Below are positions 7,619 to 29,183 of a DNA stretch of 64,000 nt, piece by piece; the first letter of the stretch is position 1; each line of letters opens with the position of its first letter. The notes under the pieces are model-generated. The model searched no databases. It saw only the letters and a program-made list of their open reading frames with translations, and had not been told where the DNA came from. A program made the translations under genes and the position numbers. The stretch covers positions 9,672,001 through 9,736,000 of the forward strand of contig OZ024755.1 of the NCBI GenBank assembly GCA_964016885.1, written 5' to 3'. This DNA is from Eledone cirrhosa (Eukaryota).

Positions 7619-7722
7619 TTTCCATGAAACCAGTCATTGCAGACGTCGCATTCGATCATAAACCGCGTATCATCATAAGGTAGGCGACATAAACAGTACA
7701 CAGTTTCATCCTCAGCCGCCAT
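7619..7722 (-). CDS. KDM7A/PHF8: KDM7A/PHF8-like, first coding exon (PHD finger)
   Basis: [34 protein letters not shown], then GTAAGT donor. Confidence 0.96.
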
Positions 7723-8605: not shown

Positions 8606-8814
8606 AAAATATAGTCGCCGCAATGCAGATAACTATAATAATAGTTGATTACGTATAAATTACCCCTGAAAATGGAAAAAGTGTACAGAAACTTCGAGGC
8701 TGCGTGGATCGTTTCCCCGCGTACGTTTCAATCCATTTTCCCCGTCTCCAGGAGTACTTTACCCGATTTATTTAACCATTATTATAGTCATTTGCATCGC
8801 GGCGACTAAATTTT
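8606..8814. mobile_element. Palindromic MITE-like element
   Basis: ~40-bp imperfect terminal inverted repeats (tagtcgccgcaatgcagataactataataat / attattatagtcatttgcatcgcggcgacta) plus weaker internal symmetry. Confidence 0.75.
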
Positions 8815-10432
8815 CCAATGATTCTGGAGTTAACCAGTGTTAAACCCCCCCCCCCCTCTATAATATGGACGAGGTGTTAAATTTTCATTACATTTATTGC
8901 GGTGTGACGCGCGTTTCGCGATTGATCGGCTCAAGGTTCGATCTGTATAGATCGGGCCCGACACTGGAATCAAAAGCTCATCTGACATCTATAATATTTA
9001 TATTCAAATACATTTTAGGAATTTAAACAAAATTTATATAAAAAGAGAAAATTCACATTCAATCACATCACAAGAGGTGTTGGAGCAAGCTAACTTATTT
9101 GCAATATTGCCGTGGGTAGTAGCAAGGCCGAGGCGTTGGAATAGAAATTAGACGTTAAATGGTGATGATGAATTATTGCCTGGTCGCAACAAATCTTTGA
9201 TATCTCCCATAATTAAACATGACATTCTAATGAATGGCGTTTGATGATGCATACGAATAAAGAATATTTTATATTTTCAGGTTTCAGTATGATTTGGTTG
9301 CTCAAGCACCCAGTGTAGGGTGTTCAACTCATAATCAGAAGGTAGTGAGTTCCATTCCTGGACTGGGTGGTGCATTACACTTTATTTCAGCTTTCTCTGC
9401 CACGTTGAATCTTCCCTCCTGTCTATGGAATGCTCAGCCACTTGCACATAAATTTCATGAGCAGGCTGTTCCATTATTAAAAAAACTGGAATACTTATTC
9501 AAGCTGAAAGAGGTCCAACACACACACACGTCAACATAGAAATTGGTGTAGGCATGGCTGGTTAAGGAGATTGCTTTGCAACTATGGGTTCAGGTTCAAT
9601 CCCACCTTAAACAAGTGTCTTATGAGTGAAATTTGGTAGTAAATCAGTGCTTAATTGAATTTAATGTCCCCCGCATATGGACTATGTGTTACATATATTC
9701 TAATTTTGGCATGGTTTCTATAGATGGATGCCTTTCCTACCACAAACTCTTTAGAGAGAGAAATAATTGAAGAATGGTCTCAAGAAACAATCTCACGAAG
9801 ATGACACACGTACGAACCGACTGGCAATATGCCAAGATACAAAAGACCCACCAGTACAAGCACTGCAACACTAAAAGTAAATGTGTGAAACAGTATTTAG
9901 CAATTGAATGAGACAATGTAGAGTCTTAGATGTATTTTCTGTCTGGATGAACTGTCTAGTATTGATGCCACAAAAACACAACCTGTACACTTTGTAAAGT
10001 AGTGGTGGTGGTGCCTCAAAAATGTGCAGTACACCCTATAAGGTGGTTGGAACATGAGATCACTCAGACCATGCCAGCATATGGGAAACTAAGTGATGAT
10101 GATGTGTCCTAAAGTCGAAGTCTTGAAATATATTTGAATGTATCTTTAATACATATTGGAATAATAATGGTTTCTATATTTGGCACAAGCCCAGCAGTTT
10201 TGAGGGGAGGAGAAGGTTGATTGCATCAGCTTCAGTACTTGGCTGATACTTTATATTATTGACCTCAGAAGGATAAAAGACAATGTTGACCTTGGTGGAT
10301 AGTTAATGCTAAAGAGTTAAGCTAGTGTTTGGAATATAACTTAAAAATTCTTAAATAAAATTATGATAGGTTTTTAGATAAATATAAACAAAGTGGGGTA
10401 TCAAAAGGGGTTAAAGAATAGTAATATCTCTT

Positions 10433-10470
10433 ATGCTTCTCAGTCTTTTGGCTAAGATCAAAGTGTAGTA
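10433..10470 (+). pseudogene. U2: 5' fragment (~38 nt) of U2 snRNA
   Basis: atgcttctcagtcttttggctaagatcaaagtgtagta matches the U2 5' end through the GUAGUA branch-point recognition sequence. Confidence 0.85.
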
Positions 10471-10661
10471 GCTCTTATACACCAGCCAGGTCTAAGGGGG
10501 ATAATATGACTTGCTCTTATAATATATGGTCAAGTAAAGTGTTAGCACAAGCAACCAAGTCGACAAAAGGAAACAATAGACTCCAACAAAGCACCTTTAC
10601 AATCTAATGATAAAAGTTAGGAGAGGGGTAACTTTCTGGAACCTTGGTTGGACAGAATATC

Positions 10662-12830: not shown

Positions 12831-13319
12831 CCAGCTAAGTTGGAACAGCTATGAAATCCAATTATATACATAATTATTATTTTGAATCATGCATATATAA
12901 TATATATAGCCGATACTGTCCAGCATCGCTTATTATTTCTTGTTACTAAACTATAATTATATATTAAATATAAAGGCTACACTATTAAACATTTTACGTT
13001 TGTTGTTGTTCGACAAATATTGTTGTGTCAGATACTTAAAGTATATATTTGCCAAGTAATTGATTCATAACACACTCAATGCAATTTTCGTGGAAGAAAG
13101 ACTAAGTATATTCTTTAAGATGGTGTGATTTCGAACGTTGATTAAGTGAGTATGTATTAATATATATAAGGTTTATGGTTGACAAAAGAAACAAATCAAG
13201 AAAATAAGGAATCGGATGGGGGGGGGGCAGGGAACAGACATACACTACAACAAAGAATGTTAGTGTTGTTTATGGGGCGTCACTATCAATAACTCTTTCG
13301 TTTCTTCTCTGTCCCAGAT

Positions 13320-13590
13320 TCTGTGGTGGAGGGAGGAATCACTGGAATTGTAGCCGAACGGAGTAAACTTCTAGAATGCCATGATTTATCGGTAAATCAC
13401 ATATTCAATGTGACATTAGATACGTTCGCTATCAACTGGGTCCCTGACAACGAAATTTTTGTTATTGTTGGTGGCTCGCCTTACTGAAGTATCTACTCTT
13501 GGAGAGTGTACTTCGTTATTCCTAAACATTAGCCAAGCTATCGCCCATGGCAATGATGTGAGTGTCTTGGCATGTCTCAAAAATGTTTAA
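13320..13590 (+). mobile_element. Second, more decayed CRE remnant of the 11851 family
   Basis: Shares ggctcgccttac and gagtgtcttggcatgtctcaaaaat with the 11851 copy; AERSKLL..HDLSVNHIF remnant. Confidence 0.65.
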
Positions 13591-13665
13591 TGGGGGCACA
13601 GATATTCTCTTGTTGAGTATTTTTTTTATTTTTTATTCTCTGATTAATTTCTATTGATTTATTTC

Positions 13666-14029
13666 CTGCACACTAAAAATAAATTTAATTTCTTGAATTT
13701 TAGTAATGAGAATGACGTGGTGAAGAGTGATGTGACACTCAGAAAGAAAAATAATGAATGAGATGGTTAGGTAATGTGCTGGGTGAGAGGAATAGAGCCA
13801 GTGATGAATATTGTGAAGAGAGAGAGAGATTGTCATTGACGTACTTAATCGTAAACATTATATAGATTCTCTCTCTCTTCACAATATTCATCACTGGCTC
13901 TATTCCTCTCACCCAGCACATTACCTAACCATCTCATTCATTATTTTTCTTTCCGAGTGTCACATCACTCTTCACCACACCATTCTCATTACTAAAATTA
14001 AAGAAATTAAATTTATTTTCAGTGTTCAG
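13666..14029. repeat. Long inverted repeat (arms ~13666-13827 and ~13868-14029, 40-nt spacer)
   Basis: Arms are reverse complements with about 6 mismatches in ~162 bp. Confidence 0.95.
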
Positions 14030-14040
14030 ATGTCACATAT

Positions 14041-14118
14041 ATGATGGAACAGTATACAATTCTTGGAAATATTGGTGAAGGGGCTCATGGAATTGTTTTT
14101 AAAGCTAAATATAAGCAG
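14041..14118 (+). CDS. CDK20: Cyclin-dependent kinase 20 (CCRK), coding exon 1
   Basis: MMEQYTILGNIGEGAHGIVFKAKYKQ; GEGAHG is the CDK20 glycine loop. Confidence 0.96.
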
Positions 14119-14647
14119 GTAAGGTTTATCAATATAGTTATTTAATATACTGTGGGTCCCCACATTTTACACTGTTTAAATTAGTTCAGTTTTGAACTTT
14201 TGTGGTCAGAAACATTTTTTTTTTTCAAATGAATAAAAGCTGTAAAATTCTTAACATCCTGTTCCACATGAAGTCACATTACCTAACATAAGGGAGAAAA
14301 CGGTAACCTCCTTCCACTATCATTCTTTTTCTGATTTTTTTCAACCTTATTTTAAACTGTATATTTACTAAAAAAACCTTCCATTATAATTTTATGTCAG
14401 AACCTTTGTTAAGTAATGGTCCAAACATCAGCTTAATAACAAGAAAGTTATATTACTTAATCTATCGAAATTCTTGATTATTTTCAACTGAAATTCCTAG
14501 ACAGCATATTTCATTAGATATATGGTAATGAAAAAGTTAATTGCAAACATATGTTGAGATGTTCTTCTTGGTTCGTTATATTTTTAATGTGAAGTTATAA
14601 TCTAGAAATGTTTGGAATAAAAATGAAAATTTCTGTTTATTTTTTAG

Positions 14648-28836: not shown

Positions 28837-29150
28837 TAACAAAAAAGAAAACAACTGAAAATTGTTTAATAGGTTAAAATCAATCACAATTATTCTAGAA
28901 ATATATATTAGTAGCACATATTTAATTCTTGTCAGTATAATGTAGTAGTCTCCTTATACTGAGATTATAAGTGGTGTACTTTATTATTAAGTCAAGAAAA
29001 CTATAACATTCGGCTATATGACAATATACAGTTAAGAAGGAAACAATGCTGTTTTATACTTTTAACATATAATAATAATAATATTGATTTCTTTATTATA
29101 TGTTAAAAGTATAAAACAGCATTGTTTCCTTCTTAACTGTATATTGTCAC

Positions 29151-29183
<33 letters not shown>

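What the first reader, a model, noticed from the sequence alone, without database searches (positions are those of the whole stretch)
13666..14029. ~162-bp-arm hairpin burying the splice acceptor of the first CDK20 coding exon
Seen: a near-perfect inverted duplication whose right arm contains the pyrimidine tract and both candidate AGs (tttattttcag at 14022, ttcag at 14029), ending 12 nt before the ATG. Four of about six mismatches would be A.C pairs on the sense transcript. Because the arm includes unique intron-end sequence, it looks like a local inverted duplication rather than two TE copies. Established: long dsRNA with A.C mismatches is a preferred ADAR substrate, and coleoid cephalopods edit heavily. 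Inference: structure- or editing-controlled splicing of CDK20, or an endo-siRNA source.
Basis: partly seen in the sequence, partly recalled or inferred. Interest (0 to 1): 0.7.

Follow-up and report, generated by a model that had tools for sequence, protein, structure and literature searches.

The report
Fold-back intron burying octopus CDK20 acceptor
A 162-base backwards copy of an intron's end in an octopus kinase gene (CDK20) is predicted to fold over the splice signal, yet a transcript assembly shows the intron removed at that very signal, and similar fold-backs are common in this genome, so it is likely a tolerated duplication accident rather than a control switch.

Summary
In detail: arms 13666-13827 and 13868-14029, 6 mismatches (4 A.C), 40-nt loop. 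A spliced contig in one public run joins 13611 to 14023 (GT..AG), so both arms lie in one 411-nt 5'-UTR intron of CDK20, 87% of it hairpin, and the buried AG at 14021-22 is used. Outer arms and loop are single-copy; the inner 84 nt are a dispersed LINE-like fragment. An older repeat is cut at 13665 and probably resumes in the loop, so the left arm is likely the new copy (local template-switch duplication). The regulatory reading is unsupported: 14 comparable fold-backs occur in 1.4 Mb sampled; background A.C:G.U is 37:40; editing the A.C sites is predicted to tighten the stem; molluscs reportedly lack Dicer2. Still odd: opening this acceptor costs a predicted 17.8 kcal/mol against 4.0-9.8 for nine other CDK20 acceptors, and all mismatches lie in the outer half that carries the splice signals (post hoc p 0.01-0.02), hinting at selection to loosen the stem. 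Editing and intron retention could not be measured. The scan noted a similar exon-masking inverted copy in another genome (e1-8090466).

The parts
13582..13611 (+). 3' part of the first (non-coding) CDK20 exon as far as the transcript contig reaches; holds two upstream ATGs
   Evidence: (record 10, 1595 nt, depth 23.1)
13612..14022 (+). 411-nt 5'-UTR intron, weak GT donor, CAG acceptor; 357 nt (87%) are stem or loop
   Evidence: joint 13611->14023, GT..AG, one contig, 30 letters on the short side
13545..13665 (+). remnant of an older dispersed repeat with inverted ends; supplies exon 1, the donor and the U-rich 5' tail of the intron; profile match stops at the first base of the left arm
   Evidence: E 1.4e-9
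13151..13267 (-). opposite-strand copy of the same old repeat end, in the CpG-rich putative promoter
   Evidence: E 7.6e-7; CpG obs/exp 0.7-0.9 against 0.33 for the window
13666..13827 (+). left arm: likely the new, inverted copy of 13868-14029
13828..13867 (+). 40-nt loop; single-copy, probably the continuation of the old repeat
13868..14029 (+). right arm: likely the ancestral intron end plus the first 7 nt of exon 2; holds branch-point candidates (A13974, A13988), an 8-nt pyrimidine tract and both AGs
13744..13827 (+). inner part of left arm (mirrored at 13868-13951): fragment of a high-copy decayed coding repeat that also forms 68-90-bp minisatellites; LINE ORF2 C-terminus by recalled motif only
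   Evidence: Pfam gave no family
14021..14022 (+). acceptor AG used in the spliced contig, 8 bp inside the stem base, between two mismatches
14028..14029 (+). second AG at the stem base; use not seen; would put the exon-1 ATG at 13590 in frame with CDK20 (11 extra residues)
14023..14118 (+). exon 2, first coding exon of CDK20 (ATG 14041/14044); coding exons continue to about 19630

Best explanation
The hairpin fills a 411-nt 5'-UTR intron of CDK20 that is spliced at the AG predicted to be buried in its stem, and it is likely a lineage-recent local inverted duplication that the gene tolerates rather than a regulatory device. Shown: anatomy, single-copy outer arms, both arms in one intron, splicing at 14022 in one library, high genome background of fold-backs. 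Inferred: a replication template switch copied the last 155 nt of a 249-nt intron plus 7 nt of exon 2 in reverse and inserted it 40 nt upstream, at 13665/13666. Inferred, untested: the spliceosome still uses the old branch point, tract and AG in the right arm because the outer stem is kept or made open in the cell (proteins loaded on the left arm before its partner is transcribed 350 nt later, helicases, and incidental ADAR editing of A-U pairs), helped by the 5-6 substitutions that have weakened just that part of the stem.
For: Joint 13611->14023 GT..AG with no other letters. Outer arm: 2 of 2 genome matches are the two arms; 24-mer with 2 mismatches 1+1 hits, loop 27-mer 1 hit; no target-site duplication visible at the ends. 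The old repeat profile ends at 13665; with the left arm removed in silico the match runs to the end of the loop, which 0 of 30 shuffled loops did; the loop fits the continuation in related copies at p 0.004, 0.043, 0.061 and 0.68, the left-arm start never (p 0.53-0.98). Background: 14 other ungapped fold-backs with arm >=150 nt, >=93% identity, spacer <=150 nt in 1.399 Mb (13 in 0.999 Mb dispersed, 1 in 0.400 Mb next to the window); 4 of 25 checked are near single-copy like this one. Octopus is reported to be exceptionally rich in near-perfect dsRNA-forming loci (PMC5625713, passages). Template switches of type 1-4-3-2 create inverted repeats and can keep them without selection (PMC5453318, passages). 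Mismatches halve the predicted cost of opening the AG (9.6 against 19.6 kcal/mol for a perfect stem).
Against: The profile gain across the junction is only 1.7 bits and 2 of 30 shuffled loops scored higher, so arm polarity is moderately supported. N-terminal extensions of O. sinensis and O. vulgaris models fit 13622-13664 better than the right-arm end (p 0.004 and 0.047 against 0.995 and 0.60), which could mean the whole hairpin region is absent in those species. The predicted cost of opening branch point to AG is 43.7 kcal/mol, and no call shows how it is overcome. Mismatch clustering (p 0.008-0.021, post hoc) is not what pure neutrality predicts. RNA evidence is one contig from one library; contigs drop rare forms. 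The template-switch events in PMC5453318 are mostly much shorter.
Confidence: 0.6

Rival explanations
1. Editing- or structure-controlled splicing: ADAR editing or temperature changes the stability of the stem, or destroys the AG at 14021, and so tunes intron removal or the choice between the two AGs, which changes the upstream ORFs and CDK20 output.
For: A 155-bp intronic stem is an expected ADAR substrate (PMC5625713, passages). The two AGs give different upstream ORF layouts. Predicted opening cost rises from 18.5 to 27.2 kcal/mol between 37 and 12 C. Inverted Alus can occlude splice sites (PMC7404189, passages).
Against: A.C share is within background. Editing the A.C adenosines is predicted to tighten the stem. 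Only one acceptor is seen. Every acceptor's cost rises in the cold (4.7 to 7.5 without the left arm). No conservation evidence; the arms differ by only 5-6 events.
Confidence: 0.13
2. Stem-bridged splicing: the hairpin stays closed and the spliceosome uses a branch point and U-rich tract in the open 5' tail (A13643 or A13657), reaching the AG across the frayed stem base, like yeast downstream stems.
For: Two YNYTRAY matches in the tail and none in the last 60 nt; tail T fraction 0.68, intron end 0.36, the lowest of 10 CDK20 introns. Opening only 14017-14029 costs 10.7 and the tail 3.5 kcal/mol. Downstream stems occur in 21 of 88 yeast introns (PMC12350175, passages).
Against: Donor-to-branch distance would be 31 or 45 nt; in human extract 46 nt abolished splicing and about 50 nt is the minimum (PMC6692369, passages; the octopus limit is not known to me). 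The U-rich tail and its motif are part of an old dispersed repeat, not evidently a splice signal.
Confidence: 0.08
3. The whole 364 nt is an inserted fold-back element (MITE or Penelope-like inverted insertion) that landed at an old acceptor and brought its own AGs.
For: Peptide extensions of two Octopus models place the 13622-13664 sequence close to exon 2. 12 of 25 other fold-backs have whole copies elsewhere in the sample. Penelope-like elements often leave inverted structures (PMC8557442, passages).
Against: No second copy of outer arm or loop, no target-site duplication, no Rfam match, no hammerhead core motif; the loop appears to continue the flanking repeat; the peptide extensions may come from spliced 5' exons.
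Confidence: 0.12
4. The excised intron is a long hairpin RNA or 5'-tailed mirtron that yields small RNAs against the LINE-like repeat family.
For: The debranched intron would fold at -259 kcal/mol with a 61-nt 5' tail and end at the 3' splice site; its inner stem matches a high-copy repeat.
Against: [quoted passage not shown]
Confidence: 0.04
5. Assembly artefact (chimeric fold-back read).
For: No listed short-read contig spans the loop.
Against: Contigs of runs X1 and X3 cover left flank plus left arm (12840-13771) and right arm plus right flank (13924-14412) with every arm-specific base, and stop exactly 30 nt past the innermost mismatch, as a 31-mer graph does at two identical copies; the transcript contig needs an intron of this span only at its ends. 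An artefact would not carry 6 differences.
Confidence: 0.03

Closest known systems
Short-range template-switch inverted repeats, type 1-4-3-2 (PMC5453318, passages seen)
   Same: Reverse-complement copy of nearby downstream sequence set a short distance upstream, giving a near-perfect hairpin without a target-site duplication.
   Different: 162 nt, longer than the tens of bases typical there; polarity rests on a paralogous repeat, not on an orthologue; the copy covers a live 3' splice site.
Stems that occlude splice sites: inverted Alus, SMN2 intron 7 long-distance pairing (PMC7404189, passages seen)
   Same: Intronic complement pairs with splice signals of the same pre-mRNA.
   Different: There occlusion lowers use of the site; here the site is used in the one transcript seen, and the stem covers branch point, tract and AG together over 155 bp.
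[quoted passage not shown]
   Same: A stem could shorten the effective branch-to-AG distance.
   Different: Those stems hide cryptic AGs and leave the true AG outside; here the used AG is 8 bp inside the stem and an upstream branch point would sit only 31-45 nt from the donor.
Hyper-edited palindromic repeats (Xenopus Harbinger; octopus dsRNA abundance; PMC5625713, passages seen)
   Same: Self-folding 200-400-nt element in a transcript of an animal with heavy editing.
   Different: Not a multicopy transposon; editing at this locus not observed.
Zebrafish (AC)n/(GT)n structured introns (PMC4691745, search listing and start of abstract only; details recalled)
   Same: Intron whose ends are brought together by base pairing.
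   Different: Simple repeats in many introns that help splicing; here unique sequence, one intron, with the AG paired.

Membership tests
Local template-switch inverted duplication | Both arms and spacer single-copy or locally derived, no family of whole copies | tested here: met
Local template-switch inverted duplication | One arm interrupts otherwise collinear ancestral sequence | tested here: inconclusive
   profile stops at 13665 and extends through the loop once the left arm is removed, but gain 1.7 bits; pairwise p 0.004-0.68
Local template-switch inverted duplication | Orthologue without the copied arm | not testable with these tools
   no relatives of G000 held; metagenome scan 0 hits; only peptide hints
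MITE / TIR transposon | Many whole copies sharing termini | tested here: not met
MITE / TIR transposon | Target-site duplication | tested here: not met
   flanks differ at both ends
Penelope-like / hammerhead fold-back insertion | Hammerhead motif or homology to a multicopy element end | tested here: not met
   no Rfam match; recalled core motif absent on both strands; some Penelope-like clades lack canonical hammerheads (PMC8557442), so this is not decisive alone
ADAR-regulated splice site | dsRNA spanning the splice signal in one transcript | tested here: met
   predicted fold and intron bounds; not probed experimentally
ADAR-regulated splice site | A-to-G differences in RNA against DNA of the same animal, tied to isoform change | not testable with these tools
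   only contigs; no intronic contig listed for X4
ADAR-regulated splice site | A.C mismatch enrichment above background | tested here: not met
   4:0 here, 37:40 in 31 other fold-backs; p 0.053 one-sided, 0.125 two-sided
Downstream (branch point to 3' splice site) stem | Branch point upstream of the stem at a usable distance from the donor | tested here: inconclusive
   motifs at 31 and 45 nt from the donor, below the human minimum; no lariat data
hpRNA / mirtron small-RNA source | Phased or discrete 21-23-nt reads from the stem | not testable with these tools
   no small-RNA run available; pathway reported lost in Mollusca
CDK20 (CCRK) gene | Best matches named CDK20 and collinear exons | tested here: met

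The most novel reading that the evidence does not exclude
An intron that is 87% one hairpin is spliced efficiently because purifying selection has punched mismatches into exactly the part of the stem that covers the branch point, tract and AG, with ADAR or helicases doing the rest (or because the closed stem bridges an upstream branch point to the AG). With about 0.2-0.6% of this genome inside such arms, octopods would carry many acceptor-burying fold-backs, a natural set for asking how much RNA structure splicing can overcome and whether heavy editing is what makes them tolerable.
Probability: 0.17. Interest if true: 0.65.

Novelty: new member of a known kind. Interest (0 to 1): 0.32.

Why it matters
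As one more fold-back in a genome with on the order of 10,000-40,000 of them it matters little. Its value is as a compact test case: a 411-nt intron whose whole 3' end is predicted to be paired (17.8 kcal/mol to open against 4.0-9.8 for the gene's other acceptors) and which is nonetheless removed. A minigene and lariat mapping would show whether folding is outrun, unwound, edited open or used as a bridge, a long-standing question about how far predicted pre-mRNA structure constrains splicing in cells, here in an animal with unusually heavy A-to-I editing.

Tried and rejected
Transposon pair or MITE: rejected. Hammerhead/Penelope fold-back: no support. I first read the U-rich stretch 13619-13665 as a stranded old acceptor with the whole hairpin inserted behind it; some searches showed that the stretch is part of an older dispersed repeat, which demoted that reading. 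An RNA-linked origin suggested by the arm ending on the second AG: the used acceptor is the first AG, so the arm end is not the intron end. Fossil of edited RNA (all four transitions read A-to-G on the minus strand): too few, and simpler causes exist. A general rule that fold-backs are more perfect near the loop: not seen (71 inner, 58 outer; of 17 other fold-backs with 3 or more mismatches 1 had all outer and 1 all inner). No RNA holder was listed for the stretch; X4 is of unrecorded kind and judged a transcript assembly from its spliced contig. X4 lists no contig inside the intron except short repeat-family pieces, and X2 has holes in loop and flanks; holes prove nothing. RAD-seq run X5 gave next to no cover of the single-copy parts. 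Metagenome scan for an orthologue: 0. Reverse transcriptase upstream of the inner repeat: not recognised in 12 of 12 loci read, and Pfam gave no family for two copies; the Atlas look-up gave no result. My hand-set exon ends were off by 1-2 nt and gave stops; tblastn gave the open, collinear exons. Literature searches listed no paper on this locus; octopus + CDK20 gave 2 unrelated papers. No supplements were read; editing-site tables in cephalopod supplements could bear on editing here.

Full report
Observation. It folds at a predicted -271 kcal/mol, z = -34, better than 100 of 100 shuffles. The six mismatches are C:T, A:C, G:A, A:C, C:A and A:C; all lie in the outer 76 bp and the inner 86 bp are perfect. 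The gene is CDK20 of an octopod: one exon is 98% identical to O. vulgaris CDK20-like, the cluster holds Octopus and Argonauta CDK20, and ten coding exons lie collinearly from 14044 to about 19630.

Is it real DNA? Short-read contigs of runs X1 and X3 (one sample, which may or may not be the assembled animal) cover 12840-13771 and 13924-14412 with all arm-specific bases and break 30 nt past the innermost mismatch, as expected where two identical copies collapse. In X2 the perfect inner stem appears as short collapsed contigs. No listed contig spans the loop, and X2 has holes in plainly single-copy flanks too, so the loop junction itself is unconfirmed.

Transcript. Run X4 (kind not on record) holds a 1595-nt contig that lands on CDK20 exons and joins 13611 to 14023 across 411 nt with GT..AG ends. 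So both arms are in one 5'-UTR intron, 357 of its 411 nt are stem or loop, and the first AG (14021-22) is used. This is one contig of one library; contigs drop rare forms, so retention, use of the second AG and editing could not be measured.

What the arms are made of. The whole hairpin has no second copy among 271 genome matches; all others cover only query 79-168 or 201-286. The outer arm matches only itself (2 of 2; 24-mer with 2 mismatches) and the loop once; these searches give lower bounds. The inner 84 nt belong to a high-copy decayed repeat (85,936 first-look candidates) that also forms 68-90-bp minisatellites and translates like the C-terminus of a LINE ORF2 (the label is recalled, Pfam gave no family, and no reverse transcriptase was recognised in 12 loci).

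Which arm is new. The sequence before the left arm belongs to an older dispersed repeat with inverted ends. A profile of 8 copies matches 13545-13665 and 13267-13151 and stops at the first base of the left arm; with the left arm removed in silico the match runs to the end of the loop, which none of 30 shuffled loops did, though the gain is 1.7 bits and 2 of 30 shuffles scored higher. Pairwise, the loop fits the continuation in four related copies at p 0.004, 0.043, 0.061 and 0.68, the left-arm start at p 0.53-0.98. I infer that the left arm was inserted into a 249-nt intron as a reverse copy of its own end plus 7 nt of exon 2, the geometry of a 1-4-3-2 template switch (PMC5453318, passages). 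Against this, the N-terminal extensions of O. sinensis and O. vulgaris models fit 13622-13664 better than the right-arm end; they show that the old repeat predates the split, but may be spliced and cannot settle what lies between. With 5-6 differences over 324 nt, against at least 2 in 15 nt of 5' UTR to O. vulgaris, the duplication is probably younger than that split (inference).

Background. In 140 stretches of the genome (1.399 Mb) there are 14 other ungapped fold-backs with arms of 150 nt or more, 93% or more identity and spacer up to 150 nt: 13 in 0.999 Mb spread over many contigs (weighted to the large ones) and 1 in 0.400 Mb beside the window. That is 2.5-13 per Mb, 0.2-0.6% of bases, on the order of 10,000-40,000 per genome. 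Of the 25 longest others, 12 have whole copies in the sample and 4 are near single-copy. Octopus is already reported as exceptionally rich in near-perfect dsRNA-forming loci (PMC5625713, passages). The hairpin as such is ordinary here; its position is the point.

The A.C argument. Among 129 mismatches in 31 other fold-backs 37 are A.C and 40 G.U; 4:0 has p 0.053 one-sided, 0.125 two-sided. Two of the four are adjacent and may be one event, and one looks like CpG decay. Reading the four A.C adenosines as G raises the predicted cost of opening tract plus AG from 18.5 to 23.9 kcal/mol: editing there would close the site, not free it. Editing of A-U pairs is likely for such a stem but was not observed.

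What stays odd. Opening the last 15 nt of this intron costs a predicted 17.8 kcal/mol against 4.0-9.8 for the nine other CDK20 acceptors; branch point to AG costs 43.7, against 6.3 without the left arm and 57.4 for a perfect stem. All mismatches lie in the outer part that carries the splice signals and none is a G.U on the sense strand; p is 0.0096 for six events, 0.021 for five, and other fold-backs show no such gradient (71 inner, 58 outer), although 1 of 17 was all-outer and 1 all-inner. This is post hoc and only suggestive of selection to loosen the stem; homogenisation of the inner part by a later switch would look the same.

Mechanism. Most likely (0.6) the old signals in the right arm are still used because the outer stem does not stay closed in the cell: the outer left arm is made 350 nt before its partner and can be protein-bound (recalled principle), helicases remodel pre-mRNA structure (PMC7404189, passages), and the mismatches halve the cost at the AG. 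A bridged branch point in the open 5' tail is attractive (two YNYTRAY motifs; yeast precedent, PMC12350175, passages) but leaves only 31-45 nt to the donor, under the human minimum of about 50 (PMC6692369, passages). Regulated splicing remains possible because the two AGs give different upstream ORFs. Small-RNA output is unlikely (PMC11114477 and PMC12553114, passages). PMC12871342 was seen as outline and abstract only and does not bear on the case.

Novelty. Seven literature searches listed nothing on this locus. Earlier scan notes describe Penelope-type fold-backs and edited hairpin fossils in this genome and an exon-masking inverted copy in another; they are unchecked leads, and my tests did not place this hairpin with the first two. 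Verdict: new member of a known kind, interest 0.32.

Noticed in passing
window 7621-7722 (-): First coding exon of a PHD-finger gene (Pfam PHD E 8e-6; PHF8/KDM7-like by recall) on the opposite strand, head to head with CDK20 about 5.9 kb away.
   Followed up: partly
window 10432-10559 (+): Decayed U2 snRNA copy (31.2 bits, below the gathering score 46, E 8.8e-5).
   Followed up: yes
window 13151-13665: The CDK20 first exon, donor and CpG-rich putative promoter lie inside an old repeat with inverted ends: a possibly transposon-derived promoter, which the peptide extensions suggest is shared with O. vulgaris and O. sinensis.
   Followed up: partly
window 13300-13490: A low-depth (3.4) 191-nt contig in run X4 upstream of exon 1; strand unknown; may be an upstream start, antisense promoter transcript or DNA.
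   Followed up: no
window 13583-14044: Three upstream ATGs in the spliced leader (ORFs of 16, 25 and 4 codons), one ending in a stop that overlaps the first CDK20 ATG.
   Followed up: partly
L012:1446-2525 (G000:C2:371203305-371204384): Twelve 90-bp tandem copies of a LINE-like coding fragment, open in one frame for hundreds of codons; related 68- and 90-bp arrays at many loci.
   Followed up: partly
L085:3316-5098: A near single-copy fold-back with arms of about 890 nt at 95% identity and a 7-nt loop.
   Followed up: no
L092, L103, L130, L148, L145, L121 and others: Many multicopy near-perfect fold-backs end directly at (TA)n microsatellites.
   Followed up: no
window 29015-29153; 8606-8814: Smaller fold-backs in the window (69-nt arms, 93%; 104-nt arms, 70%, CpG-rich).
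   Followed up: no
G000:C1:143315153-143765160: Nine near-identical matches spaced about 50-60 kb apart: a large tandem segmental array.
   Followed up: no
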